Positions 30,870 to 53,277 of a DNA stretch of 64,000 nucleotides are shown here, one piece after another (the stretch's first letter is position 1; each line of letters begins with the position of its first letter). The position numbers were made by a program, and so were the translations under genes. Origin of the DNA: a virus; the IMG/VR virus record IMGVR_UViG_3300035565_000044, positions 1 to 64,000 of that record. One strand, given 5' to 3'. The notes beneath the pieces are model-generated. The model saw only the letters and a program-made list of their open reading frames with translations, was not told the DNA's origin and ran no database searches.

Positions 30870-30954
30870 CGGTGCGTTGAGATGTGTAACGATATGTAAC
30901 GATATGTAACGATACGCCACGTTACGCCACGTTACGCCACGAGGCGAAACGATA
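30870..30954 (-). repeat. CGY-NN pentamer array 1 (17 units)
   Basis: NN on minus strand: AT TT CT GG AA GG AA GG AT TA AT TA AT TA AT AA AC. Confidence 0.9.
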
Positions 30955-30993
30955 TCTGGTGAAAGACGGAGCCAATGCCGAGCAAGCGATCCG

Positions 30994-31245
30994 TCAAGGA
31001 TTTTTATCAGCTCCGTCCTTCTGCTGATTAACGTATCCAGCTTCTTTGATCATGTCAAGCGTCTCTATTATCCCTGTGATAAACATTCCTATGCATATAC
31101 CGCTTGTGAAGCCAAATGATCCCCATATGAAGTCAAAGTACATACTTGCAATCGCAAGAATTGACATGATAGACATGGTTACGATGGCCAGTCTCCATGC
31201 TGGTTCAGTCTTGAGAAGGATAAAGAATATCTTTGTTCTTGTCAT
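30994..31245 (-). CDS. Small protein with two transmembrane segments
   Basis: 83 aa with two hydrophobic stretches. Confidence 0.55.
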   Translation of the reverse strand: MTRTKIFFILLKTEPAWRLAIVTMSIMSILAIASMYFDFIWGSFGFTSGICIGMFITGIIETLDMIKEAGYVNQQKDGADKNP

Positions 31246-31248
31246 CTT

Positions 31249-31264
31249 AGTTCCACGTGAAACG
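31249..31264. promoter_or_regulatory. parS-like palindrome 4 (at the 3' end of array 2)
   Basis: AGTTCCACGTGAAACG. Confidence 0.7.
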
Positions 31265-31327
31265 TTGCGTTGCGAGACGGCGCAGGGCGCTGCGGCATGT
31301 TACGTCGCGAGATGTTGCGACGCGAGA
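31263..31327 (-). repeat. CGY-NN pentamer array 2 (13 units)
   Basis: NN: CT GT AA CT GA AA GC AG CC GC CT AA AA. Confidence 0.9.
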
Positions 31328-31535
31328 AACAATATTCACTGGTGTGCTGTTACGCCAAAGAGGGCACGGGTTTATCCTAGGCAAATCGCGGACCACACGA
31401 AGCACCGTTGGCCTCCCCTCACTCTTTAAAGGTATAGTGGAGTCCATCCCACTTGGCTGCTTCTAGGCCAACCTCCCAGTGAAATTAAGCCCTTAACGTG
31501 AGTTGTGCGCGTGAAGCGTAGCTTCGCTACTCCCG

Positions 31536-31841
31536 TTAAGCGGCTTCCGAGTTGTGGGCAGCTTGGAAACCAGCCATCCCACCAATTTCAATCCAATTTT
31601 CAAACGACTTTCTGTCTCCACAACACACAGCGGGAACGAAATTGTTTATAAATTCGGCAATGTCGTAAAGGCGGCGGCGGCTGGCGAAATCAGCATGCTC
31701 CAGAGCGCCTAACAAATTATTACTAAAAAACGCTTCAAGAAAACATCCTGGGTTAACCCCTTCATCAACATAACGCGTCAGGGGATGGCGTAAATGCGCC
31801 GGAACAAAGTCCCATACAGCCCTAGACTTCCAATCGTCCAT
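31536..31841 (-). CDS. Phage hypothetical protein
   Basis: RYV..G..PG.FL.A..SNNL..A...AD motif; RBS AGGAG. Confidence 0.7.
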   Translation of the reverse strand: MDDWKSRAVWDFVPAHLRHPLTRYVDEGVNPGCFLEAFFSNNLLGALEHADFASRRRLYDIAEFINNFVPAVCCGDRKSFENWIEIGGMAGFQAAHNSEAA

Positions 31842-32129
31842 GTTTCTCTCCTGAAAAAAAATTCCCGGTTAGCCGATAGGGAAAAGCCAACCGGGAGAAG
31901 TTGATAGAGGGAACGCAGCCCATCCCCTTTGGTTTGGACGTACAAGGGACGGGCGTGGGATTAATATAGACCCTTATGAAAAACACGCAAGGGGTAATCG
32001 TTCGATACGGACGACATTTTAGAATGAGGCAAAAATATCACAGAACCGTGGCCAAACGCCAACGGATGGGTTGACCATCCGCTACGAATAGGCTACATCC
32101 ATTCTCGTAGTAACCGAAAAGGGGAAATT

Positions 32130-33092: not shown

Positions 33093-33123
33093 CTTGCACG
33101 ACGACCCGACTCGCGTGTAATGT

Positions 33124-33170: not shown

Positions 33171-33225
33171 TAACGCTCCGTGGCGTATCATAGCACCCCG
33201 CCCCGTTCCACAACGCAACGTAACG
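33171..33225 (+). repeat. CGY-NN pentamer array 3 (11 units)
   Basis: NN: AA TC GG AT AG CC CC TC AA AA AA. Confidence 0.9.
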
Positions 33226-33550: not shown

Positions 33551-33610
33551 TTTCTCCCCGCTCCGTATCGTAGCGTATCGTACCGCAACATACCTTGACG
33601 TAACGCATCC
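33551..33610 (+). repeat. CGY-NN pentamer array 4 (about 12 units)
   Basis: NN: TT CC TC AT AG AT AC AA AC GA AA AT; begins immediately after the MazG stop codon. Confidence 0.9.
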
Positions 33611-33629
33611 GAATCAGATACTTTCGTAG

Positions 33630-33658
33630 AAAGGCCCTCCACCTTGGGGGGCTTTTTT
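33630..33658 (+). terminator. Intrinsic terminator downstream of array 4
   Basis: AAGGCCCTCCA-CCT-TGGGGGGCTTTTTT. Confidence 0.7.
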
Positions 33659-33672
33659 GCTATGGGGATGAT

Positions 33673-38858: not shown

Positions 38859-38934
38859 TGGTAGCGGGAGCCAGATTCGAACTGACGACCTCCTGGTTAT
38901 GAGCCAGACGGGCTTACCTCTGCCCTATCCCGCA
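38859..38934 (-). tRNA. tRNA-Met(CAT), initiator-like (1:72 mismatch)
   Basis: Cloverleaf; anticodon loop CTCATAA; T loop TTCGAAT; encoded ACCA; U1xU72. Confidence 0.9.
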
Positions 38935-39028: not shown

Positions 39029-39100
39029 TGGCGCTCCTACACAGGATCGAACTGTGATTTTCAGGATTGAAAGCCTTATCCCTCACCAGAGGATAGGAGC
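39029..39100 (-). tRNA. tRNA-Glu(TTC)-like, with a shortened D loop and irregular anticodon arm
   Basis: Perfect acceptor stem GCTCCTA/TAGGAGC + GCCA; T arm CACAG-TTCGATC-CTGTG; loop CTTTCAA(T). Confidence 0.75.
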
Positions 39101-39110: not shown

Positions 39111-39170
39111 CGTTACGTCACGTCAAGTTACGGGGCAAAGCGTCAAGACACGATACGATGCATCATGGAA
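39111..39170 (-). repeat. CGY-NN pentamer array 5 (about 12 units)
   Basis: NN: TC GA AT AT GT GA TT CC AA GA GA AA; ends 10 nt before the 5' end of tRNA-Glu. Confidence 0.9.
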
Positions 39171-40943: not shown

Positions 40944-40959
40944 TTAATAATTAGTTAAC
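40944..40959. promoter_or_regulatory. CtrA-type box upstream of the AAA+ ATPase
   Basis: TTAA-TAATTAG-TTAAC (TTAA-N7-TTAAC). Confidence 0.5.
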
Positions 40960-41304
40960 ATGAGCCATTGGCGGCGGAGCTAACCAGAACCCTGTTTCCT
41001 CCATAAAATTGTCCCGCTGCTCAAGCGTCGCATGACAACGGACCAGGACAGCGCACTGTTTATATCTAGCATCAAATGCGTAAACTCTGCTGATGCCCAT
41101 CCTATGGCGCAAGGCGGCCTCGAAAAACGTTCCTAGGCTTGCCTTAGACAGATTGAGAGACCTATGCGGCCTCCCGTCTCTGGGGTATTCTCCAGCGTCC
41201 CAAGGGAATTGGCCATAGACGTTTGGATTGTATTTGTTTCCAATCTCTATGGCTCTTTCGATTTCGGCGCTGAATTTCTTATTTAAAGTTTCTTGAATGG
41301 ACAT
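40951..41304 (-). CDS. Hypothetical protein
   Basis: 117 aa, co-oriented with neighbours. Confidence 0.6.
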   Translation of the reverse strand: MSIQETLNKKFSAEIERAIEIGNKYNPNVYGQFPWDAGEYPRDGRPHRSLNLSKASLGTFFEAALRHRMGISRVYAFDARYKQCAVLVRCHATLEQRDNFMEETGFWLAPPPMAHVN

Positions 41305-41308
41305 AAGA

Positions 41309-41363
41309 CGTTGCGTTATGTTGTGATGCGAGACGTAACGGCGAGTTACGATACGACGTGGTG
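41309..41363 (-). repeat. CGY-NN pentamer array 6 (11 units)
   Basis: NN: AC GT AT AA GC TA CT AT AA AA AA; fills almost the whole intergenic gap. Confidence 0.9.
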
Positions 41364-41803: not shown

Positions 41804-41819
41804 TGTTCCACGTGAAAAT
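41804..41819. promoter_or_regulatory. parS-like palindrome 7 (at the 3' end of array 7)
   Basis: TGTTCCACGTGAAAAT. Confidence 0.65.
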
Positions 41820-41820
41820 A

Positions 41821-41880
41821 CGTTGCGTTATGATGCGGAGAGATACGATGCGCCACGTGACGTCAAGTTGCGCTGCGTCA
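41821..41880 (-). repeat. CGY-NN pentamer array 7 (12 units)
   Basis: NN: GA AG AA GA CA GG AT AT TC AT AA AA. Confidence 0.9.
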
Positions 41881-41887
41881 TCCGATT

Positions 41888-41916
41888 CAGATAGTCCACC
41901 TAGCGGGAGGAGTCAA
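41888..41916 (-). promoter_or_regulatory. Leftward sigma70-like promoter initiating at array 7
   Basis: TTGACT-N17-TATCTG; predicted start site about 41881. Confidence 0.6.
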
Positions 41917-42481: not shown

Positions 42482-43843
42482 ATGACAAACTTTAAAAATA
42501 GCGTTGCCGTCGCCCCTCTCGCCAACCATGAGCTGGAGAAGGCGCTGCTCAGCTCCATACTTAACACCCCTGATATATTTGATAAAATTGGGGACTCTAT
42601 CCTCCCTGAATTCTTTAGCTCCCCCCTCCACCGGGCTCTGTACACGCGCCTGTCTGCGTTCCTTATGCGGGGAGAGCGGGTCAATCCACTCTTGCTGACT
42701 AAAGATATGAATGATGAAAGTAAGAAAGAGGTAAAGGAAATATCTGATTACCACTCAGATGGTTCTCTTGCCGAAAGTAACCTGGAAGCCCTTCGGGAGC
42801 TATGGCAAAGGCGCGAGCTCCAGAGAATGTGCGATGAGGGAGCGGCGCTTGCTTCTACGGACATGGCACCTGAAGCGTTGATCAACAAGCTTGAGGAGAA
42901 ATTATATAAAATAGCTATTCCCGTGGAAAGCGAAATGGTTTCTTCTGCTCAAGCTTATAAAGAGCTTATGGATGAAATTAAGGCGCGTGTTGATAAGGCT
43001 AATGAGACTTTTCCCCGCACTCCCATTCTCCCAGGTCTAAGAAGTGGCTTCGAACAGCTAGATGACATGTTAGGTGGCCTCCAAGAAGGACACTGTATAC
43101 TTCTTGGAGCTCGTCCGTCTATGGGAAAAACGGCCTTATTAGGGAACATATCCCATAACGTAGCTGCTGCTGGAGACCCTGTTGGATTTATAACCTATGA
43201 AATGACTGTTGAGCAGTTACTCTTACGGGCGGCGGCGTCTGAGGCAAGTGTTAGCTCAGACGCACTCAACCGTGGAGACCTCAGCGATCCACAACTTATC
43301 AAGTTCCAAGAAGATTCTGGTTGCTTGGCGCATCTCCCCATACACTACGTATACAACCCAGGTAACATTGACAAGCTACTGACAGTCATGAGGAAGCTTG
43401 TTAGAGTTAAGAAATGCAAGCTTATCATCATAGATTACGTTAATCTTATACCTGGAGGTATAGGAAGAGATGCTACAGAGAAGCTTGGAAACATCTCTGC
43501 TTCTCTGAAAATGGCGGCTGGACGCCTTGGAATTCCAATTATCATAGCTTGTCAGCTCAATAGAAACCTAGAGTCTAGAGACGACCAAAGACCACAGCTC
43601 TCTGATCTAAAGCAGTCTGGTAATCTAGAACAGGATGCTGACGCTGTTATTTTTCTTCACAGAGAAATATACTTTGTTGAGCGTAGGCGCCCAGATGTTT
43701 CTGATCCAAAATTTTCAGCTTGGCAGGCTGATTGCAACAGATGGCGTGGAAGGGCTGAGATCCTTCTTAGAAAAAACCGCCATGGCCGTATAGGAGAATC
43801 CGAAATAAACTTTAACGAGTCCACCACCAAATTCTCTAATTGA
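42482..43843 (+). CDS. dnaB: Replicative DNA helicase DnaB
   Basis: GARPSMGKT, YEM, IIIDYV, QLNR..E.R...RP.LSDLKQSG.LEQDAD and KNRHG motifs. Confidence 0.95.
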   Translation: MTNFKNSVAVAPLANHELEKALLSSILNTPDIFDKIGDSILPEFFSSPLHRALYTRLSAFLMRGERVNPLLLTKDMNDESKKEVKEISDYHSDGSLAESNLEALRELWQRRELQRMCDEGAALASTDMAPEALINKLEEKLYKIAIPVESEMVSSAQAYKELMDEIKARVDKANETFPRTPILPGLRSGFEQLDDMLGGLQEGHCILLGARPSMGKTALLGNISHNVAAAGDPVGFITYEMTVEQLLLRAAASEASVSSDALNRGDLSDPQLIKFQEDSGCLAHLPIHYVYNPGNIDKLLTVMRKLVRVKKCKLIIIDYVNLIPGGIGRDATEKLGNISASLKMAAGRLGIPIIIACQLNRNLESRDDQRPQLSDLKQSGNLEQDADAVIFLHREIYFVERRRPDVSDPKFSAWQADCNRWRGRAEILLRKNRHGRIGESEINFNESTTKFSN

Positions 43844-43909
43844 GAAAAATAAGAGAAAAATAAGAAGAACATAAGAATTGATCTTCTTTCTCACACAGTT
43901 TAAAATAAA

Positions 43910-43938
43910 AAAAGGAGGCTGTAAGCAAGCCTCCTTTT
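43910..43938. terminator. Bidirectional terminator-like hairpin
   Basis: AAAAGGAGGCT-GTAAGCA-AGCCTCCTTTT. Confidence 0.6.
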
Positions 43939-43976
43939 AATAAAGAATAGAAACCCTAACCCATAAGGGACTTCCT

Positions 43977-45329
43977 ATGGCCGATTCTACTGCACAAAAA
44001 AATAATGTCAATAAGTTTTTGCCAGAGTACGAATCACAGAGTGTTTTCCGCTCAGACGGGGCTGACTACGCATACACACTGGTATCTAACAGACTGCTCC
44101 AAGACTCTGGCATTGATTGGGAAACCAGGGGAATGATTGCGGACCTGCTGAGCAGGCCAAAGGACTGGGATATTAGCGTTATGGGGCTGGTGGCTATGGC
44201 CAATGGCCTAACTAAGAAAGCAAAAATTTATAGGATGATAAACGCCGCTATGGCGAGTGGGTACATCCGACGCTTTACCAAGCGTGGCGCCGATGGACGT
44301 GTGGCTGGATATACGTATGTCGTATCAGACAACCCTTCTCGCCTTGCACTGCTTTCCGATTTTCAGGAAACTGCTAAGCAGGAAGCTGAAAAACAGCCAC
44401 AACAAAGTAAAGATCTTAAAAAAGTAAAAACAGAAAAAAAATACACAGCGCCAACATCGCATTTCCCACATTTTGAAGAGGACATGGAAACAAAAACTCC
44501 CCCCATCCCCCAAGGGGGGAGTGGTCATTCCTGCGTCATGACCGTTCGTGAAAACGCCGAGCCTACAAGCCAACCATCCCAACCAACGTGGGAGGACGAG
44601 GAAGGGTTTGTTAACCATATTAAGATAGACGACTCCGCTACTCATTCCACTTCAATGGTATCCAGCCTTGAGGAAACGCCAGAAGCGGTGAAAGCTGAAA
44701 CCCTGGTCCTGACGCCCCCAGAGCCAGAAGCGCCGTCTGTGACGCGTAAGAAGGCCAAGAAAGCGCCTTCTACGAAGCTGGACCACAATACCGACCCTGA
44801 GTTTGGAAAATTCTGGGATAAATACCCAAATAAGAAAGGAAAGGCTGGCTCTTACGCCCATTGGAAGAGATTTTGTAAGGATAAACCGGAGCTGGCTTCT
44901 CTTTTGCCACAGGCCGCTATGGAATACGAGAGCGATCTTCGTAGGCAGTACAAGAGCGCTTCTGAGGCTAAGCAGCGCACCTGCTGTGGATATAATTGGT
45001 TCAACAAAGGTCTCCATGAGTACTATGTTGATGTTATAATTGAGAGAAGTAAGCCACAGCCTGTGGAAAATTCAGAAAGCCAATTAGAGCAACGTGCACG
45101 CGAAGAACGCGAGAGAGTCGCTAGGGTAGCTGAAGCATGTTCTGAAACTAAGCGGGCTAGGTTCGTTGAATTCTTGTCAAAGGTGTACTCCAACGTTAAA
45201 GACGCATGGAACGAAAAGGTTATTGAATATTTCCATGCCCGTAAGTACTGGGATATCGACGCCCTTATCCCAGTTGATGTGAAGAATGAAGCCAGGGCTG
45301 CTATCGGAGCTCCACTTCTGGCTTGTTAG
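43977..45329 (+). CDS. Phage replication initiator (winged-helix N-terminus)
   Basis: YTLVSN.LLQD..I.W..RG....LLSRP.DW..GYI.R; C-terminal F..FW..YP.K.GK. Confidence 0.75.
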   Translation: MADSTAQKNNVNKFLPEYESQSVFRSDGADYAYTLVSNRLLQDSGIDWETRGMIADLLSRPKDWDISVMGLVAMANGLTKKAKIYRMINAAMASGYIRRFTKRGADGRVAGYTYVVSDNPSRLALLSDFQETAKQEAEKQPQQSKDLKKVKTEKKYTAPTSHFPHFEEDMETKTPPIPQGGSGHSCVMTVRENAEPTSQPSQPTWEDEEGFVNHIKIDDSATHSTSMVSSLEETPEAVKAETLVLTPPEPEAPSVTRKKAKKAPSTKLDHNTDPEFGKFWDKYPNKKGKAGSYAHWKRFCKDKPELASLLPQAAMEYESDLRRQYKSASEAKQRTCCGYNWFNKGLHEYYVDVIIERSKPQPVENSESQLEQRAREERERVARVAEACSETKRARFVEFLSKVYSNVKDAWNEKVIEYFHARKYWDIDALIPVDVKNEARAAIGAPLLAC

Positions 45330-45344
45330 AAAGGAAAGATTACC

Positions 45345-46253
45345 ATGTCCGAAAGGTTTACCGACGCCGCCCGCTCCAGGGGCTTGCTTATACAAACTCC
45401 CATTGCTGATGGGACTGTTCACCGAGTACGCACTTCTGACAAACCCCACTCCCGAAATGGCGCCTACGTGCTCTTTACCAACGGCCGGGGATGGTTCGAA
45501 AACCACGCTGACGGCATGGGGCGTCAGGAATACGCTCCAGAGTCTAAGGGCGGGCTCACAGCGGCCGAAAGGTATGAGGCTAGGATTAGGGTAGCCGAAG
45601 AGAGAAAGCGGTTCCAGGAGGCTCGCACAGAGGAATACAGAGCGGCTGCGCTGGAGGCCAAGGATCTCTTTGGCAGAGGGCTTATGGTCAAGGCGCATGG
45701 CTATCTGAGCGCTAAAGGCGTCCTCCCTCACGGACTGCGCGTTTTGGACGGCGCATTGCTTGTCCCAGTTCGAGACGCGAATGGGAACTGGCAGAGCTTG
45801 CAAAGGATTTTTTTAAATGGTTCAAAAACCTTTCTAAAGGGCGGGAGACTTGAAGGGGGGATGTTTGTCATTGGCAACATATACCCTGAAGGGGCGGCGC
45901 TGGTTGCCGAGGGTTACAGTACTGGGGCGACTATCTATGAGGCGACGGGTTGCGCTACGATTGTGGCGTTCAACTGTGGAAACCTTACAAAGGTGGCTAG
46001 GTCCCTTAGGAAGAGATATCCTAAGTTGAAAATAATCATTTGCGCTGACGATGACCGGAACACGCGTGGAAACCCAGGACTGACAAGCGCGAGCGAAGCG
46101 GCTAGGGCGGTGGGTGGTTATCTGGCCAAACCAAATGTTAAAAAAGGTAGCGACTTCAACGATATGTGTGCTGAACTAGGCATGCAAGAGGTTAGGCGCG
46201 CGCTTATGGCGGTAGTGAAAGGTTGCATGGCAGAGCCGGATCGTGGTAAGTAG
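45345..46253 (+). CDS. TOPRIM-domain primase (TraC-like)
   Basis: H.YL..KGV, LLVP, SLQRI, AEGYSTG, VAFN.GNL, ICADDD and DFND motifs. Confidence 0.9.
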   Translation: MSERFTDAARSRGLLIQTPIADGTVHRVRTSDKPHSRNGAYVLFTNGRGWFENHADGMGRQEYAPESKGGLTAAERYEARIRVAEERKRFQEARTEEYRAAALEAKDLFGRGLMVKAHGYLSAKGVLPHGLRVLDGALLVPVRDANGNWQSLQRIFLNGSKTFLKGGRLEGGMFVIGNIYPEGAALVAEGYSTGATIYEATGCATIVAFNCGNLTKVARSLRKRYPKLKIIICADDDRNTRGNPGLTSASEAARAVGGYLAKPNVKKGSDFNDMCAELGMQEVRRALMAVVKGCMAEPDRGK

Positions 46254-46259
46254 GAGCAT

Positions 46260-46319
46260 TAACGTTTCGCCTCGTAACGCATCATAACACGCCTCTCCTC
46301 TTCGCACCATAACGTAACG
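46260..46319 (+). repeat. CGY-NN pentamer array 8 (12 units)
   Basis: NN: AA TT CT AA AT AA GC TC TT AC AA AA. Confidence 0.9.
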
Positions 46320-46333
46320 TTTCATGTGAAACA
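46318..46333. promoter_or_regulatory. parS-like palindrome 8 (at the 3' end of array 8)
   Basis: CGTTTCATGTGAAACA. Confidence 0.65.
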
Positions 46334-46397
46334 ATGCGCTACCTTGACAAAATCGTTGAGATAGCGCATTGTGCTTTTGTATGCAAAATTGAAAGGG

Positions 46398-46757
46398 ATG
46401 AATATGTCTGAAGGGAATCAGTACAACTCTGGCGCCCGACCACGGGCTAACAGACTTTTACTCGGAAAGTTATACGAAAAGACTAGTCAGAGTGGACAAA
46501 AGTATTTTCAAGGCGTTCTTGGATTTCTAAAAGTCCTTGTTTTTCATGATGATAACGCGGAAGCGGGCAACGAATGGAATTTTTTCGTTGTAGAACGTGA
46601 TCCTTCAGAAACTAAGCCTCGTCAGATTAGTGGTCCACCTCAGCACCAGCCCAACGCTGTAGGCCAAGGCGGCGGATATGGCGCTCAGACGGCCCCCCGC
46701 CCCATACGCCAGCCGCGACAGTTGCCTCCAGAAGGTGGGAGCAATGACCCTTTCTAA
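46398..46757 (+). CDS. Putative ssDNA-binding protein
   Basis: Small beta domain, Pro/Gln/Gly linker and C-terminal DPF, an SSB-like tail. Confidence 0.55.
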   Translation: MNMSEGNQYNSGARPRANRLLLGKLYEKTSQSGQKYFQGVLGFLKVLVFHDDNAEAGNEWNFFVVERDPSETKPRQISGPPQHQPNAVGQGGGYGAQTAPRPIRQPRQLPPEGGSNDPF

Positions 46758-47298
46758 GCCTCCTAGAGGGTTCCTGACGCCTAGATGGGCGACAGAGGCT
46801 TTACTGTCCCATGTCGAACATTTGGTCAATGGCCTGGAGCCTGCGGCTGGTCAGGGGGGAATATCGAGAGTCTTGAAAGAAAGTGGTAAAAAAGTCGAAT
46901 CTTTTGATATTTACGAGCACAAGGACGATGGAATAACGGTTAACCGGCGTAACTTCCTCAGTCAGCATTGGGACGTTAAATATTCAAACTTTCGAATGAA
47001 ACTGAAAGCTTCGGATGGCGGGATTATCTGCCATCCACCCCAGCATCTATTCAAACAGTTTATCAAGAAAGCATTGACGCTAACCGAGCACCACGGGACA
47101 GTGGCGTTCTGGCTTAGTCATTCAATTGACACAGAGCTCTGCTACCAGGAGTTCTTCCATGGAAGCGACGCATTTTATAAAAAGATCGTTCCAATTCAAA
47201 GACTAAGACTATCGGATGATACTCTGGAGCCAATGGCGTGGTATATCTGGAGACATGGATATGGGGGAGTTCCGACTCTTCATTATGAAATAATTTAG
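46744..47298 (+). CDS. DNA methyltransferase-like protein with a degenerate catalytic motif
   Basis: TP.WAT.ALL and LEPAAG.G.I (motif I); IICHPPQ in place of IxNPPY. Confidence 0.65.
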   Translation: MTLSKPPRGFLTPRWATEALLSHVEHLVNGLEPAAGQGGISRVLKESGKKVESFDIYEHKDDGITVNRRNFLSQHWDVKYSNFRMKLKASDGGIICHPPQHLFKQFIKKALTLTEHHGTVAFWLSHSIDTELCYQEFFHGSDAFYKKIVPIQRLRLSDDTLEPMAWYIWRHGYGGVPTLHYEII

Positions 47299-47444
47299 GT
47301 GAGTAATGGGGCGTATGAGGAATAGAGCGGTTGATGGAGTGCGCCGCCATAGGCGTAAATTTTCAATTGACCGTGAGAAGGCTATTGAAAGCACTATAGA
47401 GGAAATGATATCCATCATGAATAGACTGATTATTTTAGTAAGAA

Positions 47445-48095
47445 GTGATGAGGATGGACTTGACTCTAATGAGGCAAATAGAGGAAACGGCAGTAGAGAT
47501 ATCAATGGAGCCACGGTGGCAAGACGCTACGGCCGAAAGGATAATGAAAGCCAAGAAGGCTGAACGGCAGGTCCATGAAAATATAGTATATGGTACAAAC
47601 GGTTTTCCTACTGGTGAGAATCGTAGAGAAATTTATTCTGCTTTGGACACTCTTTACAGGCGTAACCCACCGATGATCTTAAAAGAAGAGTGGGAAGCTG
47701 GTTGCCATTTCTTATTTATATATAGAAAATCAGAACAGCATACAAGAACTACAATGAAATGGGTAGCTCAAGTGGATGGAGGCGTTTATGCGCCAGACCC
47801 GCTAGAGTTTAAAGAGTTCTCAATTAAAGAACTCTATTCAGCTAGCAAGTCAGTCCATCCCCAGGGGCGTACAGCCCTTACATGGCTTATAGAAAACGAA
47901 TGGCATGATATGAGCCTCGTTGACCTTGGAAGCCAATACCCTGGACCACAGGGAAGGGACGCCCAAAGAGAACGAGGCCGAGTCTATCTGCGGCTGGCGC
48001 TTAACGATTTAGGGAAGTACTTCGGATTTATTTCCCCCAATAACGCTTGGGATACCAGGAGGTTTCTGGAGCAATTATTGGGGAAGAGGCGTTAG
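47445..48095 (+). CDS. Putative transcription regulator (DUF6456-like)
   Basis: EAG..F, T.KW, and a C-terminal LRLAL..L..YFG helix. Confidence 0.55.
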   Translation: MMRMDLTLMRQIEETAVEISMEPRWQDATAERIMKAKKAERQVHENIVYGTNGFPTGENRREIYSALDTLYRRNPPMILKEEWEAGCHFLFIYRKSEQHTRTTMKWVAQVDGGVYAPDPLEFKEFSIKELYSASKSVHPQGRTALTWLIENEWHDMSLVDLGSQYPGPQGRDAQRERGRVYLRLALNDLGKYFGFISPNNAWDTRRFLEQLLGKRR

Positions 48096-48457
48096 CGGTT
48101 CTTGTTCCTATTATATATGGTTTCTAGCGCAGTTATAGATTCGCTAGATAAGGCTTCTTTGAAAATCTCAATAAGCTTTTCATTGTTAGGAGTTTCCTTT
48201 TCGGTAGGGGCTGAGTCCCTGAGCGACACAGCCACCTTTGCCACCACGCCCCCAGCATAGTAGCACAGAGCGCAAATAACTTCGTTGTAGTCGCTCCCCC
48301 TTCTCTCCTCAGAATCAAGCCACCTAAGGGCAGACTCTAGCATGTGTTTACGGGCGCGTCCTACGAGCGCGACCTGTTCGCTATCGCTGAGGCTATCTTG
48401 GTGGGCTGACTCCACCGCCGCAACGATCATTTCATCAAGCTGCTTTTCAATGTCCAT
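48092..48457 (-). CDS. Hypothetical protein
   Basis: RBS GAGGAG before MDIEKQ. Confidence 0.6.
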   Translation of the reverse strand: MDIEKQLDEMIVAAVESAHQDSLSDSEQVALVGRARKHMLESALRWLDSEERRGSDYNEVICALCYYAGGVVAKVAVSLRDSAPTEKETPNNEKLIEIFKEALSSESITALETIYNRNKNR

Positions 48458-48512
48458 ATTTTTCTCCTCTAACCCCTTGTATCCGTTACGGACGTTCGTT
48501 GCAAATGAGAAA

Positions 48513-48528
48513 AGTTTCACGTGGAGCA
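48513..48528. promoter_or_regulatory. parS-like palindrome 9
   Basis: AGTTTCACGTGGAGCA. Confidence 0.55.
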
Positions 48529-48537
48529 TTTTCCTCG

Positions 48538-48566
48538 TTGACATGGGGTTAATTAGGGCTTAATTA
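48538..48566 (+). promoter_or_regulatory. Promoter of the Y-RNA cluster with an embedded CtrA-type box
   Basis: TTGACA-N17-TAATTA; TTAA-TTAGGGC-TTAA at 48549-48563. Confidence 0.6.
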
Positions 48567-48576
48567 TCTCTTCACA

Positions 48577-48642
48577 GCCGGTGGCTAGGAAGTCGATTAC
48601 AACGTCTTGTGAACGCTAACATCGCCTCCGCTTTCCCCCGGC
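48577..48642 (+). ncRNA. Y-RNA-like gene 1 (minimal)
   Basis: Closing stem GCCGG/CCGGC; shared GTGGCTAG..CGATTAC..ATCG..CGCTTTCCC scaffold; upstream of the Ro60 gene. Confidence 0.75.
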
Positions 48643-48652
48643 GTCTGAATTT

Positions 48653-48790
48653 TTGTGTCGTGGCTAGGGATACGATTACATCTTCTATAGACAAGAAGAC
48701 TTGCTTGGTTCGATTCCGAGCTCCCCCACCATCTACGGGGGAGTGTCCAGGGTGGACAGTCGTTATCGTCCCCGCTTTTTCCCGACGCAA
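48653..48790 (+). ncRNA. Y-RNA-like gene 2 (YrlA-like, permuted tRNA domain)
   Basis: Same scaffold; T arm CTTGG-TTCGATT-CCGAG, acceptor-like stem CTCCCCC/GGGGGAG, D-like arm. Confidence 0.85.
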
Positions 48791-48797
48791 CTTAATT

Positions 48798-48937
48798 CAG
48801 TGGAGTGGCTAGATTTCCGATTACAACGATAGCTCAGTTGGTAGAGCAACAGACTTCATATCTGTAAGTCGTAGGTTCAAACCCTACTCGTTATCCCGTA
48901 AGGGGTAATCCATCGTAAATCGTTTTTCCCTCCACTG
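48798..48937 (+). ncRNA. Y-RNA-like gene 3 with an embedded canonical-order cloverleaf (anticodon TCA)
   Basis: Closing stem CAGTGGAG/CTCCACTG; same scaffold; cloverleaf at 48823-48894. Confidence 0.85.
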
Positions 48938-48946
48938 CTTTAAACA

Positions 48947-48984
48947 GGCGCCGGTTCCTTCGCAAGAGGGGATCGGCGTTTTTT
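48947..48984 (+). terminator. Intrinsic terminator after the Y RNAs
   Basis: GGCGCCGGTTCCTTC-GCAA-GAGGGGATCGGCGTT followed by a T tract. Confidence 0.75.
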
Positions 48985-49000
48985 GTTTGTAATGCGTAAT

Positions 49001-49055
49001 TTACGTCTCGCTTCATAGCGTGTCGTGACGTGCCGCAACTCACCGTAACGTAACG
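49001..49055 (+). repeat. CGY-NN pentamer array 9 (11 units)
   Basis: NN: TA CT TT AG GT GA GC AA AC AA AA; directly upstream of the Ro60 RBS. Confidence 0.9.
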
Positions 49056-49075
49056 TCTTGTAGAAAGGAAAGAAA

Positions 49076-50482
49076 ATGGCTCGTACTAATACTAGGACCA
49101 GAGCGCCACGCCCTCTGACGCATGAAGGCGCTCCAGCCGATAGGATCACAAAAGAGCAAGAGTTGCGCCGCTCTGTGTCTTGCTGCCTGCTTTGGGAGAA
49201 TGAATTCTATGAAAGCGGTGAAGACATTGCTAGCCGCATCAGGCGTCTCGCGCTGGAATGTTCTCCTCAATTTGTGTCTAATCTTGCTATTGATGTTCGC
49301 AATCGTCTTCACCTTCGTCACGTTCCTCTTTGGCTGCTTTGCGCTTTGGCTAAAACTGGAACTGGAATTCCGGGGCTTGTGGGGAATACTGTAGCACAAA
49401 CCATCCAACGCCCAGACGAAATTCCTGAGCTTTTGGCGCAGTATTACAAGGCCAATGGCGTTGCTATTAAGGATAAGGGCGGAAAGATCAACAAGATCAA
49501 GATGCCTAAGCAATTCAAGAATGGTATCGCGCGAGCCTTCACTAAGTTCAACGAGTACTCGCTGGATAAGTGGAACAAAGACGGCGATATCTCCTTGAAA
49601 TACGCCATGCGCGGCGTCCATCCAAAGCCAAAGGATGAGGCTCAGGCTCAGTTGTGGGCTAAGCTTTTGGGTAAGGAAGATAAGGAAACTGGCAAGTCTC
49701 AGAAGCTTAAGACGGCAGATACAGTCATGTCCGCCTTGAGCGCTGGAAAAGAAAAGAAAACAGCAGAAGATAAGAAAACTGTTTTCGAGCGCCAGTTGCG
49801 TGAAGGAAAGATTGGATATTTCGCGTTATTGAAGAACTTGCGCGGGATGGTTGATGCTGGCGTTGACAGGCAGCTCGTTATTGACGCATTGCGCGCTAGG
49901 AAGGGAGACAAGGGAATTTTGCCGTTTCGCTATGTTTCCGCTGCGCGGGCGGCGCCAACGTATGAACCATATGTTGATGAAGCTCTTCAGCACGCGATTA
50001 AGAGCAGCAGGGAACTTCCAGGGCATACTTGGGTGCTTGTTGACGTTAGCGGCTCCATGGACGCCAGTATCTCTGCAAAGAGTGATCTTAGCCGGATAGA
50101 CGCCGCTGCGGCTCTGGCGTCTCTGATTCACGGAGACAGAACAGTTATTACGTTCAGCAATGAAATAAAAGTTGTTCCAAGTCGCCACGGTATGGCTGGA
50201 ATTGAGGCTATTCTCAAGAGCCAGATTCATAGCGGTACTGAGATGGGAAGGGCCATAAAGTATGTGAATGATCGCGCCAAGCCCCAAGATCGGCTTATCG
50301 TGATCACTGACGAACAGAGCGGGGATGTCGTCCCTGATCCAGTTTGCCAGAACGCATACGTCATAAATGTTGCGTCCTACCGCAATGGCGTCAGTTACGG
50401 CCATGGATGGAACCATATTGACGGTTGGAGCGAAGCCGTGATAGATTACATTCATGAGCATGAGGCTACGCTTAAATTGTAG
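49076..50482 (+). CDS. rsr: Ro60/Rsr TROVE-domain RNA-binding protein with a C-terminal vWA domain
   Basis: THEGAPA, LLWENEFYE, LRHVP, QRPDE, F.EY.L.KW, HPKP, ALLKNLR, LPFRY, DVSGSM, ITDEQ and GWSEAV motifs. Confidence 0.93.
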   Translation: MARTNTRTRAPRPLTHEGAPADRITKEQELRRSVSCCLLWENEFYESGEDIASRIRRLALECSPQFVSNLAIDVRNRLHLRHVPLWLLCALAKTGTGIPGLVGNTVAQTIQRPDEIPELLAQYYKANGVAIKDKGGKINKIKMPKQFKNGIARAFTKFNEYSLDKWNKDGDISLKYAMRGVHPKPKDEAQAQLWAKLLGKEDKETGKSQKLKTADTVMSALSAGKEKKTAEDKKTVFERQLREGKIGYFALLKNLRGMVDAGVDRQLVIDALRARKGDKGILPFRYVSAARAAPTYEPYVDEALQHAIKSSRELPGHTWVLVDVSGSMDASISAKSDLSRIDAAAALASLIHGDRTVITFSNEIKVVPSRHGMAGIEAILKSQIHSGTEMGRAIKYVNDRAKPQDRLIVITDEQSGDVVPDPVCQNAYVINVASYRNGVSYGHGWNHIDGWSEAVIDYIHEHEATLKL

Positions 50483-50496
50483 TTTCATGTGAAACT
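50481..50496. promoter_or_regulatory. parS-like palindrome 10
   Basis: AGTTTCATGTGAAACT. Confidence 0.6.
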
Positions 50497-50520
50497 GCTA
50501 CGCCCATAGCATGCTGATAG

Positions 50521-50558
50521 GCCCGCCCCTTGATCGCACCAGGGGGCGGGTTTATTTT
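50521..50558 (+). terminator. Terminator after rsr
   Basis: GCCCGCCCCT..AGGGGGCGGGT followed by TTTATTTT. Confidence 0.65.
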
Positions 50559-50769
50559 ATTTGTTGATGTTTATAGCTGGAGAATTTTGTCCCTTGGTGA
50601 TAGCCACCTGAGCCTTTCTTCCGCTAGTTATATTGATATTCGTATAGCCGTCTTCTGTTGTTATGGTTATCTGAGCCTTGTCTATGATAAACCAAAGTAT
50701 GAAGCTAATCACAGCTATAGCAACTAGACCAGCAACGTACAGGTTGATTGTTGATATGATATCTATCAT
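50557..50769 (-). CDS. Small membrane protein
   Basis: N-terminal transmembrane helix. Confidence 0.55.
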   Translation of the reverse strand: MIDIISTINLYVAGLVAIAVISFILWFIIDKAQITITTEDGYTNINITSGRKAQVAITKGQNSPAININK

Positions 50770-51054
50770 TTATTCTGTCACTCCAGCCTTAAACTCTTCA
50801 AGACACTGCCCCTTTTCCTTAAAATAAAATGGATACGGAGGATGGCAACCATATGGCTGCGGTACGTTATTGCATCCCTTCCGGTTCCATTCATCTATAT
50901 TGTAATATAGATTAGAATCCGCTTGGGCCACACAGAGTTTGTATCTCTGATTAGCCGCCTTTCTCTCGTCAGGAGTAAGACAATCGGCATGGGCGACTCC
51001 GCAGAGCCGCGCCAGAAGAGCCATTATGATTACGGTTCTATTCATTTCGCCCAC
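50770..51054 (-). CDS. Small secreted Cys-containing protein
   Basis: Signal-peptide-like ..VAHA|DC; several cysteines. Confidence 0.55.
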   Translation of the reverse strand: MGEMNRTVIIMALLARLCGVAHADCLTPDERKAANQRYKLCVAQADSNLYYNIDEWNRKGCNNVPQPYGCHPPYPFYFKEKGQCLEEFKAGVTE

Positions 51055-51638
51055 TTGATTTGAACTGGTTTTCCCATACGCAGAAGCGTTATTGCTCTGC
51101 GCTCTATGCCGTCTTCAGATACGAACTTAGCCTCCTCTTTCCACCTTCCATCTTCAAGAGTCCACAGAACATGCGTGCTCGGTACTGGATGCATTTGCGC
51201 AAACAGTTTTCCAAGCGTGGCCATGGGATCGGTGTCTAAACGAGTGGGGGAGGCGTCTGGAGCCTCTACGGCCTTGGCCTTGCCGAACAGGGTTAATTTC
51301 TCCCTTGCTGGCTTCTTGACCGTCACAACAGGACGTGGCGCTGTTGACTTCTTTATTTGGGCTATGCCGCGAACGTAGGGAACGCCTAGCGCGTCCTTAA
51401 GGTCATTCACTGCTCTTACTAGGTCAGCCTTGCCGTTCGTGTGAGCTCTTGAGTCTGTTGTGTTGAGCGTCACATCGATTTCAACTTTGTGCTCAACATC
51501 TTGATAGGTGTAGACGCCGCTGAATTTGGCGGATGCGCCGCGACGTTCGATTATAACTTTGGTTAAATCAAGCTTGTCCTTAGCGTATGAAATTAATTCT
51601 CTCATATGCTTCAGGCTTGAAACGTCAGATTTGGCCAT
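51042..51638 (-). CDS. Hypothetical protein
   Basis: RBS AAGGGA; about 200 aa. Confidence 0.6.
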   Translation of the reverse strand: MAKSDVSSLKHMRELISYAKDKLDLTKVIIERRGASAKFSGVYTYQDVEHKVEIDVTLNTTDSRAHTNGKADLVRAVNDLKDALGVPYVRGIAQIKKSTAPRPVVTVKKPAREKLTLFGKAKAVEAPDASPTRLDTDPMATLGKLFAQMHPVPSTHVLWTLEDGRWKEEAKFVSEDGIERRAITLLRMGKPVQIKWAK

Positions 51639-51755
51639 GATCATCCCTTTCGGACTGTGTTGCACTCTTTCTGTTCGATGTGTAGCCTACGGCATAACGG
51701 TTAAGAAACCGTTACCAATTCCCATTGACCACAACGTTCGTATCGGATATACATT

Positions 51756-52121
51756 ATGTCTAAGTTAAAAGGAAGGGGACTTGTAGAGGAACAGCTCCTC
51801 AAATTAGCCCCTAGCGTAAACGATAGGTTTCGATCCACGTTTGAAGAATCTGAGCTTGGCGCCCGGCGCTTCGCTCACCTCGTGAGATGGAAGATTGAGC
51901 CTAGAGTTCATGTCTCAAAGAATGGATGCGTCACGTTTCGTTTTATAGACATAGGCGTGTCAATGACGGCGTTCATTTTTTTAGATAACAGCGCCTTAGA
52001 TTACAGAGCTAGCATGGAAAGAGAAGGATTTAAATATACTCCGTATTGCCAGGGGATAGACACAATGGTTAATTCATTGTCTATTATTAAGGCGTTTGGG
52101 GTAGATTTATTTACCATATAA
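51756..52121 (+). CDS. Hypothetical protein, first gene of the RAMP operon
   Basis: 121 aa; ends 13 nt before the RAMP-like gene. Confidence 0.5.
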   Translation: MSKLKGRGLVEEQLLKLAPSVNDRFRSTFEESELGARRFAHLVRWKIEPRVHVSKNGCVTFRFIDIGVSMTAFIFLDNSALDYRASMEREGFKYTPYCQGIDTMVNSLSIIKAFGVDLFTI

Positions 52122-52134
52122 GAAAGGAAAGATA

Positions 52135-52737
52135 GTGAAGATTTGTACAGTCATGCTTGAGGGCATTTCCCATTACTCTCAATCTCGCATGCATTCAGAG
52201 CCAGCGTTGGAACAGGAAAGCGCTGACGAGTACGCCAAGCGCACAGCCCTAGACCATTTGCATTTCGACAGCAAAGGGCATGTGTTTATCCCCCCTATGT
52301 CTATCAAGCAAAGCATTGATAACGCTGCGAAATATATGCAGCAAAAGGTTCCTGGAAAGGGACAGGCGACATATACAAAGCATTTTAAAAGCGGATTGGC
52401 GGTTGTTGAGCCTCTTATGCTTTTTGACAGTGAAGGAAACCCTGTCATGAAGAGCGCATCCCCCGTTGAAAAACTATGGCTCAACTCCGATGGAGTCAGG
52501 GGAGGCGGAAAGCGCGTATGGAAGTATTGCCCATATATCCCTTCTGGATGGACAGCCGAGCTTCAGGCTCATATTCTTGACGACACCATAGGCGAAGAAG
52601 TTTTTTTAAATACTCTCGTGAACGCAGGAAGGTTTATTGGGCTTGGAAGGTTCCGCCCCGCTAGTGGGGGATACTATGGACGCTTCACATATAAGCCTGA
52701 TAGCGTCAATTGGGAAGTTCTTAGAAACTTCTTGTAA
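52135..52737 (+). CDS. Stand-alone RAMP/Cas7-like RNA-binding protein
   Basis: N-terminal strand V.LEGISHY; VFIPPMSIKQSI (compare IPxSSxKG of Cas7-group RAMPs); C-terminal G-rich loop AGRFIGLGRFRPASGGYYGRF; RBS AGAAAGGAAAG. Confidence 0.75.
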   Translation: MKICTVMLEGISHYSQSRMHSEPALEQESADEYAKRTALDHLHFDSKGHVFIPPMSIKQSIDNAAKYMQQKVPGKGQATYTKHFKSGLAVVEPLMLFDSEGNPVMKSASPVEKLWLNSDGVRGGGKRVWKYCPYIPSGWTAELQAHILDDTIGEEVFLNTLVNAGRFIGLGRFRPASGGYYGRFTYKPDSVNWEVLRNFL

Positions 52738-52746
52738 GGGCGGACC

Positions 52747-53277
52747 ATGAAAATAGAAGACGAAGACGGTAAGTATAATTATTACGCCGATATCTATGTT
52801 ATACGTGATTTGTTTTCCAAGGTGGAGATTGGGGATACAATAACGTTTTCTCAAATAGAAGAAGTTATGAAGAAACCCGTTGACGGCTCTGTCTACTCCG
52901 CTATTCATCAGGCAAAGATTTTGCTTGAAAGCGAAGATAGAATGGTGTTTGGCAACGTGCGCAGCGTAGGATACAAGCGGCTAACCGATAGCGAAATTAT
53001 AGAATCTTTCGAGCTCGACCGCCGCCGCCTCCGCCGAAGGGCTCAAAGGGCTGCGCGCAGATTGACTAATATAAATGACTACGCCAGCCTCAGCAATGTG
53101 CAGAAGATAACGCATCAGGCGGGGCTAGGCGTCCTAGCGGCAATATCTAGAGTGGCTATGCCTAGGACGGTTGAGGACGTTAAGAAGTCCGTAGCTACGC
53201 TGGAGGCTCCTACTAAGTCAACTCATGCCCCGATTGGGAAGATTTTGGATATCATGAGGGGAAACGTAAAAGATTAG
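52747..53277 (+). CDS. Putative DNA-binding accessory protein downstream of the RAMP gene
   Basis: GDTITFSQIEE and F.NVRSVGYK.L (wing-like), followed by an Arg-rich helix. Confidence 0.65.
   Translation: MKIEDEDGKYNYYADIYVIRDLFSKVEIGDTITFSQIEEVMKKPVDGSVYSAIHQAKILLESEDRMVFGNVRSVGYKRLTDSEIIESFELDRRRLRRRAQRAARRLTNINDYASLSNVQKITHQAGLGVLAAISRVAMPRTVEDVKKSVATLEAPTKSTHAPIGKILDIMRGNVKD

What the first reader, a model, noticed from the sequence alone, without database searches (positions are those of the whole stretch)
30870..53277. Candidate CRISPR-independent RNA-guided system: a stand-alone RAMP/Cas7-like gene plus nine dispersed CGY-NN pentamer arrays
Seen: nine intergenic tracts (starting 30870, 31263, 33171, 33551, 39111, 41309, 41821, 46260, 49001) keep a strict 5-nt period with no indels. 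Three positions are conserved (CGT/CGC, with variants CAY, CTY, TGC) and two are free. Eight arrays have 11-13 units (55-65 nt). Each has a different NN string, and six end in AA-AA units. All nine read CGY-NN on the strand of the surrounding transcription unit (5 minus, 4 plus), which argues that they act as RNA. The window also encodes a 200-aa protein (52135-52737) with RAMP/Cas7-group hallmarks (IPxxSxK helix, C-terminal GLGRFRP..GGYYGRF G-rich loop), but no cas1, cas2, cas3, cas10 or CRISPR array. Established: Cas7-group RAMPs polymerise along guide RNA with a fixed nucleotide step. Inference: each subunit binds one CGY and displays NN, so each array is a guide spelling a gapped target with about 20 informative nucleotides, possibly against competing phages or host genes. 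I recall recent preprint-level reports of phage RAMP proteins with GGY/NN repeat RNAs (VIPR) but cannot verify them here. If related, this would be a variant with a CGY scaffold and guides scattered genome-wide.
Basis: partly seen in the sequence, partly recalled or inferred. Interest (0 to 1): 0.95.

Follow-up and report, generated by a model that had tools for sequence, protein, structure and literature searches.

The report
Phage VIPR system with scattered guides
This uncultured 100-kb phage carries a VIPR system, the CRISPR-like RNA-guided DNA silencer described in 2026 preprints. Its guide-RNA genes are scattered through the genome rather than beside the protein gene, and a sister phage's matching guides are aimed exactly at this phage's versions of two genes.

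Summary

**Arrays.** All nine 5-nt-periodic arrays are real. A tenth lies at 77121-77180 of the same 100,522-bp genome, outside the window. Units read C-[G>A>T]-Y-NN on the strand of the local genes.

**Protein.** The 200-aa protein is a Vipr-family RAMP:
- A profile of homologues hits PDB "SUSP1 Vipr" at E=1.4e-8.
- The AF2 model (pLDDT 95) matches Cas7/Csm3.
- The next gene is the conserved vipr-accessory gene.

**Link between protein and arrays.**
- In 73 of 80 relatives, period-5 arrays flank vipr.
- The window's Vipr groups with relatives whose arrays start with C.
- Those relatives' arrays end in the same ...CGCAA CGCAA CGT... signature.

**Strongest evidence.** A sister-phage contig (Vipr 84% identical) has arrays at the positions of A8 and A9. 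Read by the published 1-nt-skip rule, they match this window:
- 24/24 inside the Ro60 gene.
- 21/22 inside ORF 46371-46757.
- Both are in codon phase, and the sister's own alleles are mismatched.

**Open and known.** Targets of the window's own ten guides were not found. VIPR, non-GGY repeats and solo vrRNAs are already published (2026 preprints). The new points are genome-wide scattering in a vipr-positive phage and guides sitting beside the allele they spare. Earlier notes of this scan report scattered VIPR arrays in at least 17 other genomes.

The parts
52135..52737 (+). vipr: 200-aa minimal RAMP (Cas7-like). G-loop GLGRFRPASGGYYGRF.
   Evidence: Single-sequence phmmer finds only PDB 36pp_D 'SUSP1 Vipr' (E=0.006). 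A profile of 30 homologues hits it at E=1.4e-8. AF2 pLDDT 95. Foldseek top hits are type VII Cas7 and Csm3, prob 1.0. 675 homologues.
52747..53277 (+). vap-like accessory gene (176 aa). Probably an N-terminal winged-helix domain plus a helical C-terminal part.
   Evidence: Homologues lie directly downstream of vipr in 39 loci. AF2 pLDDT 87. Only weak fold matches to wHTH regulators (E 0.07-0.4) and to the MGMT wHTH.
30867..30951 (-). Array A1: 17 units, with internal 10-nt repeats. Followed by a terminator hairpin at 30824-30860 and a T-run, then the Erf-like gene.
   Evidence: Fold z=-3.6, due to the tail hairpin.
31255..31324 (-). Array A2: 13 units plus the start of a parS-like palindrome. 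The ATG of 30994-31245 follows.
33174..33223 (+). Array A3: 10-11 units. It starts 10 nt after a terminator and ends 9 nt before the ATG at 33233.
33554..33608 (+). Array A4: 10-11 units. Followed by a terminator hairpin at about 33626-33660, so it looks like a stand-alone small-RNA unit.
   Evidence: Fold z=-3.2.
39113..39167 (-). Array A5: 10-11 units. It starts just after a terminator and runs directly into a tRNA-like element.
39032..39100 (-). tRNA-like element immediately 3' of A5. A possible RNase P/Z processing signal that would set the 3' end of the guide RNA (inference).
   Evidence: Rfam tRNA 34.4 bits, gathering score 29. ARAGORN did not call it.
41306..41360 (-). Array A6: 10-11 units. 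It ends at the start codon of 40951-41304.
41818..41877 (-). Array A7: 12 units. Followed by a parS-like palindrome and an ATG. A TTGACT...TATCTG promoter-like site lies upstream.
46263..46327 (+). Array A8: 12-13 units. Its orthologue in sister contig L127 has 14-15 units with different NN.
   Evidence: Identity to L127: scaffold 69%, NN 35%.
49004..49063 (+). Array A9: 11-12 units in the leader of the Ro60 gene. The L127 orthologue has 16-17 units. Flanks are 97% identical; scaffold positions 64%, NN 54%.
49742..49777 (+). Site in this phage's Ro60 gene that the sister phage's guide B9 matches 24/24 under the NNx rule. NN fall on codon positions 1-2.
   Evidence: Other skips give 17 or less. 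300 shuffles reach at most 21. The sister's own allele matches 20/24.
46554..46586 (+). Site in ORF 46371-46757 that the sister phage's guide B8 matches 21/22 under the NNx rule, in codon phase.
   Evidence: Shuffles reach at most 18. The sister's own allele matches about 15-16/22.

Best explanation
This is a VIPR (Viral Interference Programmable Repeat) system of an uncultured ~100-kb phage. Its parts are a vipr-vap operon (52135-53277) and ten separately placed vrRNA genes.

Proposed mechanism:
1. Each array is transcribed on the strand of its neighbours, from its own promoter or as the leader of the next gene.
2. Vipr protomers polymerise on it, one per 5-nt unit. They clamp the C-[G/A/T]-Y triplet and expose the NN pair.
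3. The first 7-13 units pair with double-stranded DNA in which every third base is skipped (NNx).
4. The last 3-4 units (CAYAA CGCAA CGYNT), plus a hairpin, a tRNA-like element or nothing, serve as a non-pairing 3' handle.
5. The bound complex silences transcription of genes of competing, closely related phages. The adjacent wHTH protein may assist.

Shown here: family membership of the protein, the conserved accessory gene, the link between this protein clade and C-first arrays, and the 1-nt-skip, codon-phased matches of a sister phage's orthologous guides to this window.

Inferred by homology with SUSP1 VIPR: RNA expression, filament assembly and silencing.
For: Protein:
- A profile of homologues hits the solved SUSP1 Vipr (E=1.4e-8).
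- It has a Cas7/Csm3 fold.
- R174 aligns with SUSP1 R179, which holds Y3. F173 aligns with W178, which stacks on base 2 (alignment; paper 10.64898/2026.04.26.720927).

Context:
- vap homologues follow vipr in 39 loci.
- 73 of 80 IMG/VR relatives have period-5 arrays within -1.5/+2.5 kb of vipr on its strand.

Cognate pairing:
- The window's Vipr sits in a 12-member clade (SH-aLRT 94) made only of loci with C-first scaffolds. None of the 40 GGC loci is in it.
- At the G-loop position that best separates G-first from C-first loci, G-first loci have N in 36 of 36 and C-first loci have G in 18 of 24. The window has G178. At 116-117 it has L-N where G-first loci have V-P.
- Arrays flanking vipr in C-type relatives end in the same ...CGCAA CGCAA CGT... 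signature as the window's arrays.

Sister contig L127 (Vipr 84% identical, syntenic with 41874-54667):
- It has orthologues of A8 and A9 plus two arrays next to vipr and vap.
- NN differ, unit numbers differ by multiples of 5 nt, and the A9 flanks are 97% identical.

Code and function:
- L127 guide B9 matches the window's Ro60 gene 24/24. B8 matches ORF 46371-46757 21/22.
- Both matches occur only at skip 1, both have the skipped base at wobble positions, and both lie less than 1 km... less than 1 kb from the array's orthologous position.
- L127's own alleles are mismatched.

RNA-level hints:
- Orientation follows local transcription in 10 of 10 arrays.
- The arrays themselves are no more structured than shuffles.
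Against: - No expression or binding data could be obtained.
- No array lies next to vipr in the window, unlike nearly all relatives.
- No target was found for any of the window's own ten arrays, in its own genome, in L127, in 1.9 Mb of fetched loci, or by exact 8-9-unit scans of IMG/VR for six arrays.
- The clade support is SH-aLRT 94 on a quick tree, and the window's branch is long.
- The residue-scaffold correlation is not corrected for phylogeny, and four CGC loci carry the G-type residue.
- SUSP1's G1 and G2 contact residues D177 and R138 are not conserved here. They align with R172 and about C132.
Confidence: 0.88

Rival explanations
1. The arrays are mainly cis-acting leaders. Vipr polymerises on the 5' untranslated region and controls translation or stability of the gene that follows, so the protein acts as a regulator of the phage's own genes. 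Guide activity would be secondary or absent.
For: - Seven of ten arrays end 2-25 nt before a start codon, or before a parS-like site followed by a start codon, often with little or no Shine-Dalgarno sequence.
- In relatives the upstream array ends 8-45 nt before the vipr start codon. That layout would allow autoregulation.
Against: - NN and unit number change freely between sister phages while the flanks stay 97% identical.
- The sister's arrays at the same two positions match distant coding sites 24/24 and 21/22 in codon phase. A pure leader has no reason to do so.
- Three arrays (A1, A4, A5) are separated from the next gene by a terminator or a tRNA.
Confidence: 0.07
2. The arrays are decoys (solo vrRNAs). 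They soak up or redirect the Vipr of a competing phage rather than serving the phage's own Vipr, as published for satellite-encoded solo vrRNAs.
For: - Solo vrRNAs that redirect a helper phage's VIPR are described in 10.64898/2026.10.15.759431.
- None of the window's arrays is adjacent to vipr.
Against: - The phage has an intact vipr-vap operon.
- Its clade and G-loop residues fit C-first scaffolds.
- The sister phage has the same type of array both next to vipr and at the scattered positions.
Confidence: 0.03
3. The arrays are DNA-level elements: binding sites for a DNA-binding protein, promoter architecture, or something tied to the neighbouring parS-like sites. They would be unrelated to the RAMP gene.
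For: - The CG core is palindromic.
- Several arrays abut parS-like palindromes or contain TTGACG -35-like hexamers.
Against: - Strand asymmetry (CGY, never RCG) follows the direction of transcription in 10 of 10 arrays.
- The same arrays flank vipr homologues across many phyla.
- The parS-like sites occur about 20 times in the genome, mostly without arrays.
Confidence: 0.02

Closest known systems
Type II VIPR of Escherichia phage SUSP1 (Vipr + Vap1 + GGY/NN vrRNAs; bioRxiv 10.64898/2026.04.26.720920 and .720927)
   Same: - A ~200-aa minimal RAMP with a G-loop, followed by a small predicted DNA-binding accessory gene.
- Guide RNAs of about 10-16 pentamer units with three fixed and two variable bases.
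- A 1-nt-skip code in codon phase, aimed at competing mobile elements.
   Different: - The scaffold is C-[G/A/T]-Y, not GGY.
- SUSP1's G1 and G2 contact residues (D177, R138) are replaced.
- There is no pseudoknot tail. Instead there are 3-4 conserved scaffold-like 3' units plus varied ends: a terminator, a tRNA-like element, or read-through into a gene.
- No array flanks vipr. Ten arrays are spread over 46 kb on both strands.
- Sequence similarity to SUSP1 Vipr covers only the C-terminal 88 residues.
Non-canonical VIPR arrays (GAC/NN, CAC/NN, WGT/NN, TGH/NN; bioRxiv 10.64898/2026.10.21.760802) and the YNNNG class of the first VIPR paper
   Same: Period-5 arrays of about 10 units with a non-GGY fixed triplet, next to Vipr-like folds. 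I found CGC, CAC, GTC, GAC, CTC and other scaffolds among this protein's relatives.
   Different: - CGY with a degenerate second position is not named in the text I could read. The figures are not held.
- Those arrays were found by their position next to the protein. Here they are remote from it.
Solo (orphan) vrRNAs of F5 satellites and of VIPR-null SUSP1-like phages (bioRxiv 10.64898/2026.10.15.759431)
   Same: vrRNA genes that stand apart from vipr. Guides aimed at close relatives.
   Different: - Those elements lack vipr, and the solo vrRNAs sit at the old VIPR locus or in a satellite.
- This phage keeps vipr-vap and has its guides in the leaders and spacers of unrelated genes.
- In the sister phage, two guides lie beside the gene whose rival allele they match.
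Cas7 backbone of class 1 CRISPR effectors (Csm3, type VII Cas7)
   Same: An RRM/RAMP fold with thumb and G-loop, thought to polymerise along the guide at a fixed step (Foldseek prob 1.0).
   Different: - No CRISPR array, and no cas1, cas2, cas10 or cas3 seen nearby.
- A 5-nt step with only 2 pairing bases, instead of 6 nt with 5 pairing bases.
- Sequence identity is 10-17%.

Membership tests
VIPR system | Vipr protein: minimal single-RRM RAMP with G-loop and thumb, homologous to described Viprs | tested here: met
   Profile hit to PDB 36pp 'SUSP1 Vipr' at E=1.4e-8. AF2 pLDDT 95. Foldseek matches Cas7/Csm3 at prob 1.0.
VIPR system | vrRNA: 9-16 tandem 5-nt units with a fixed trinucleotide and hypervariable NN | tested here: met
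   Ten arrays of 10-17 units. NN identity to the sister phage is 35-54%, against 64-69% for the scaffold and up to 97% for the flanks. The scaffold is CGY/CAY/CTY rather than GGY.
VIPR system | vrRNAs encoded next to vipr | tested here: not met
   The nearest array (A9) is 3 kb away and the others 6-25 kb. The sister contig L127 does have arrays right after vipr and after vap. Complete relatives keep their arrays within 7 kb of vipr. This concerns layout and is not required by the mechanism. The literature already accepts solo vrRNAs.
VIPR system | Adjacent vipr-accessory (vap) gene | tested here: met
   Homologues of 52747-53277 follow vipr in 39 loci. The winged-helix assignment is only weakly supported.
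VIPR system | Conserved structured 3' tail after the repeat tract | tested here: inconclusive
   A shared 3' signature, CAYAA CGCAA CGYNT, is also found in C-type relatives and does not pair with targets. What follows varies: a terminator (A1, A4), a tRNA-like element (A5), or a gene start. No pseudoknot was found.
VIPR system | Target recognition by the 1-nt-skip (NNx) code, with skipped bases at codon wobble positions | tested here: met
   Met for the lineage, not for the window's own guides. L127 guides B9 and B8 match the window 24/24 and 21/22 only at skip 1, in phase 0. The window's guides have no target found.
VIPR system | vrRNA expressed and bound by Vipr; transcriptional silencing of the target | not testable with these tools
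CRISPR-Cas (class 1) | CRISPR repeat-spacer array and adaptation or effector cas genes beside the RAMP | tested here: not met
   No CRISPR-like direct repeats in 64 kb. The neighbours of the RAMP have no Pfam or NCBIfam cas hits. The remaining genes were not all scanned.

The most novel reading that the evidence does not exclude
Each scattered vrRNA gene and the gene beside it form a linked 'weapon plus immune allele' cassette. The guide silences the rival allele of its neighbour in a co-infecting sister phage, and its own neighbour carries mismatches at NN positions. Recombination then cannot separate guide from immunity, and the cassette can spread through a phage population like a poison-antidote or drive element. 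This would explain why guides left the vipr locus and sit in the leaders of unrelated genes.
Probability: 0.3. Interest if true: 0.8.

Novelty: new variant of a known kind. Interest (0 to 1): 0.55.

Why it matters
VIPR was described only in 2026, mostly from one E. coli phage with GGY guides clustered at the protein gene. Four points follow from this locus.

1. The same 1-nt-skip, codon-phased code holds for a divergent Vipr clade that reads C-first triplets.
2. It names candidate specificity residues: the G-loop N-to-G change and the thumb-base V-P.
3. A vipr-positive phage can spread ten guide genes through its genome under separate promoters or leaders.
4. It gives a concrete natural pair, a sister-phage guide against this phage's Ro60 allele with the sister's own allele mismatched. 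That pair makes allele-specific warfare between near-identical phages testable.

The variety of scaffold triplets among relatives may also matter for engineering orthogonal VIPR tools.

Tried and rejected
**Targets of the window's own arrays**
- Own genome with skips of 0-3, and again with the 3' units trimmed: nothing above shuffled controls and nothing near the arrays.
- Against L127 and 1.9 Mb of fetched loci: nothing.
- Exact NNx scans of IMG/VR:
  - A9, 9 units: 0 hits.
  - A2, A7 and A10, 8 units: 9, 22 and 19 hits. Extensions were at chance, or lay in unrelated frames or low-complexity DNA.
  - A8: one 20/20 hit (L189) and a homologue at 19/20.
  - A5: one 22/22 hit in two near-identical contigs (L283, L287). 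The hits for these two AT-rich patterns came mostly from AT-rich DNA (listed contigs 31-42% GC; L283/L287 are 36% GC). I estimate chance at about 0.02-0.1 per array, so I do not count them as targets.

**Other tests that decided nothing**
- NN composition is purine-rich at position 4 and poor in CA, TG and CG. That fits codon positions 1-2 in 12 of 14 arrays, but it is confounded by the AA handle and by the need to keep register.

**Searches for relatives**
- No near relative in the GenBank phage set or IMG/VR.
- GTDB genomes hold only homologues of 34-48% identity, spread over many phyla.
- L127's record beyond the fetched part could not be reached.

**Databases with no hit**
- Rfam found only tRNAs.
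- Pfam and NCBIfam have no model for the protein.

**Idea rejected**
- A TRAP-like ring protein binding 11 triplet repeats at about 5-nt spacing. I dropped it once the Vipr homology and the array co-occurrence were clear.

- No verdict on oligomerisation was obtained.

Full report
**What is there.** The window is the first 64 kb of a single 100,522-bp viral contig of 48% GC. At each of the nine stated places there is an uninterrupted run of 5-nt units.

- A scan for CG at 5-nt steps over 11 units scored 7-10 at nine arrays and 6 at the tenth (A8). Twenty Markov-shuffled genomes never exceeded 6.
- The scan also found a tenth array at genome 77121-77180, outside the window.
- A detector that assumes no motif recovered nine of the ten arrays (it missed A8) and no other period-5 array, so there is no hidden GGY array near the RAMP gene.
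- Units are C, then G (68%), A (22%) or T (10%), then a pyrimidine, then two free bases.
- The CGY reading is on the strand of the neighbouring genes in 10 of 10 arrays.
- The array bodies are no more structured than shuffled sequence, with z from -0.4 to +1.7. A1 and A4 are followed by strong terminator hairpins. A5 runs into a tRNA-like element and then tRNA-Met.
- Seven arrays end 2-25 nt before a start codon or before a parS-like palindrome.

**The protein.** ORF 52135-52737 has no Pfam or NCBIfam hit and only a PHROG of unknown function.

- Its only hit among PDB sequences is "SUSP1 Vipr protein" (E=0.006). With a profile of 30 homologues the hit improves to E=1.4e-8 over the C-terminal 88 residues, including the G-loop.
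- The AlphaFold model is confident (pLDDT 95).
- Its best structural matches are Cas7 of type VII and Csm3 of type III CRISPR complexes (prob 1.0, E about 1e-7).
- The next gene (52747-53277) has homologues directly after vipr in 39 fetched loci. Its model gives only weak matches to winged-helix regulators. This fits the published description of vap genes as predicted DNA binders.

**The literature.** VIPR is real and recent.

- Vipr protomers polymerise on vrRNAs made of 9-16 GGY/NN units and a 3' tail. They recognise double-stranded DNA through NN pairs with one skipped base and silence competing phages and satellites (10.64898/2026.04.26.720920 and .720927).
- Later preprints report solo vrRNAs in satellites and in phages that lost vipr, and guides against relatives' VIPR loci (10.64898/2026.10.15.759431).
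- They also report non-canonical triplets such as GAC, CAC, WGT and TGH (10.64898/2026.10.21.760802).

**Do these arrays belong to this protein?** The family is large, with 675 hits.

- In 73 of 80 IMG/VR loci an unbiased period-5 search finds arrays within -1.5/+2.5 kb of the vipr homologue, on its strand. Scaffolds are GGC (40 loci), CGC or CnC (15), CAC (9), and GTC, GTT, GAC, CTC, AGC and AGT.
- On a quick maximum-likelihood tree the window's protein falls in a 12-member clade (SH-aLRT 94) made only of C-first loci.
- The alignment column most tightly linked to the first scaffold base lies in the G-loop. It is N in 36 of 36 G-first loci and G in 18 of 24 C-first loci. The window has G178.
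- At 116-117 G-first loci have V-P, while the window has L-N as many C-first loci do. These correlations are not corrected for shared ancestry.
- The vipr-flanking arrays of C-type relatives end in ...CGCAA CGCAA CGT....

**The sister phage.** One metagenome contig (L127, VFSW01006922.1) encodes a Vipr 84% identical to this one. It is syntenic with window 41874-54667 at 70-75% nucleotide identity.

- It has arrays at the positions of A8 and A9. It also has two more, right after vipr and right after vap, which the window lacks.
- Between the two phages the A9 flanks (terminator and ribosome-binding site) are 97% identical, while scaffold positions are 64% and NN 54% identical.
- For A8, NN identity is 35%.
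- Unit numbers differ by whole units.

**The code, tested.** A lead from earlier notes of this scan was that scattered VIPR guides sit beside the gene whose rival allele they match. Following it, I scanned the window genome with the sister's arrays.

- B9, the orthologue of A9, matches window 49742-49777 at 24 of 24 NN positions over its first 12 units. The site is inside the Ro60 gene, which lies directly downstream of A9. NN fall on codon positions 1-2.
  - Skips of 0, 2 or 3 give 17 or less.
  - The next best site in the genome scores 17.
  - 300 shuffles of unit order reach at most 21.
- The sister's own Ro60 allele matches only 20 of 24, with one unit fully mismatched.
- B8, the orthologue of A8, matches 46554-46586 at 21 of 22, in phase, inside the ORF just downstream of A8. 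Shuffles reach at most 18, and the sister's own allele matches about 15-16 of 22.
- The last 3-5 units of both arrays do not match, so they act as a handle.
- Two of two identified targets lie within 1 kb of the guide's position in a 100-kb genome.

**What remains open.** None of the window's ten arrays has a target I could find. The perfect A5 match and the 20/20 A8 match in IMG/VR come from searches with AT-rich patterns whose hits were mostly AT-rich contigs, and may be chance. No RNA data were obtainable. Promoter-like TTGACG/TTGACT sites 36-48 nt upstream of A1, A4, A7 and A10 are consensus matches only.

**How unusual is the layout?** In ten relatives' whole records (completeness 50-100%; five are at least 95% complete), arrays lie within 7 kb of vipr, apart from isolated 1-2-mismatch single hits in two records that are probably chance. 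Here none is adjacent, and ten are spread over 46 kb on both strands. The preprints I read do not describe this layout for a vipr-positive phage. Earlier notes of this scan, which I have not checked, report it in at least 17 other large phages.

**Verdict.** This is a known kind of system in a new variant. It has a C-first scaffold with candidate specificity residues, scattered guides with varied 3' ends, and direct evidence that sister phages aim such guides at each other's alleles.

Noticed in passing
window 2964, 9575, 16688, 26542, 31251, 34374, 38784, 41806, 46320, 48515, 50483, 53278, 56125, 60169 (12-nt cores); about 20 in the whole genome: The palindrome GTTTCACGTGAAAC, which matches the chromosomal parS consensus, occurs about 20 times in the genome. 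Most copies are intergenic, often a few nt before a start codon, and some lie about 25 nt after a TTGACG. Three copies abut arrays A2, A7 and A8. Exact copies are far above chance (32 matches with up to 2 mismatches, against 8.5 expected).
   Followed up: partly
window 48823-48895 (+) and 49076-50482 (+): A Ro60/TROVE plus vWA gene (PHROG 850 at E=3e-40; Pfam TROVE and VWA_2). Upstream lie a tRNA-like gene with a UCA anticodon and a terminator, possibly a Y-RNA module. This Ro60 gene is the one targeted by the sister phage's guide.
   Followed up: partly
window 38862-38934 (-) and 39032-39100 (-): tRNA-Met and a weaker tRNA-like element immediately downstream of array A5. The junction could give an RNase P-defined 3' end to the guide RNA.
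   Followed up: no
L043:9916-9985 and L043:14065-14364: One provirus locus carries a CGC array next to vipr and five GGC arrays 3.5 kb downstream. That is two scaffold types in one locus, so perhaps two VIPR systems or a captured foreign guide cluster.
   Followed up: no
window 33603-33615 (+), 41886-41898 (+); genome 77101-77113: A second near-palindromic motif, ATC[CT]G[AT][AT]TC[AG]GAT. It lies just after A4 and just upstream of A7 and A10 on the array strand. Its function is unknown.
   Followed up: no
L283:2210-2242 and L287 (IMG/VR contigs 3300019761_000050 and 3300019760_000018): All 11 units of array A5 match 22/22 under the NNx rule, in wobble phase, inside a short ORF of a 36% GC viral contig. 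This may be a real target or a chance hit of an AT-rich pattern (estimated p about 0.02-0.05 before correction for six arrays).
   Followed up: partly
window 30029-30820 (-): An Erf-like single-strand annealing protein (PHROG 155 at E=1e-21) lies downstream of array A1 and its terminator.
   Followed up: no
window 30867-30951 (-): Array A1 has internal 10-nt repeats: (CGTGG CGTAA) x3 and (CGTTA CATAT) x3. Its NNx code would therefore read a 6-nt tandem repeat (GGxAAx, then TAxATx). That suggests a repetitive target or recent unit duplication.
   Followed up: no
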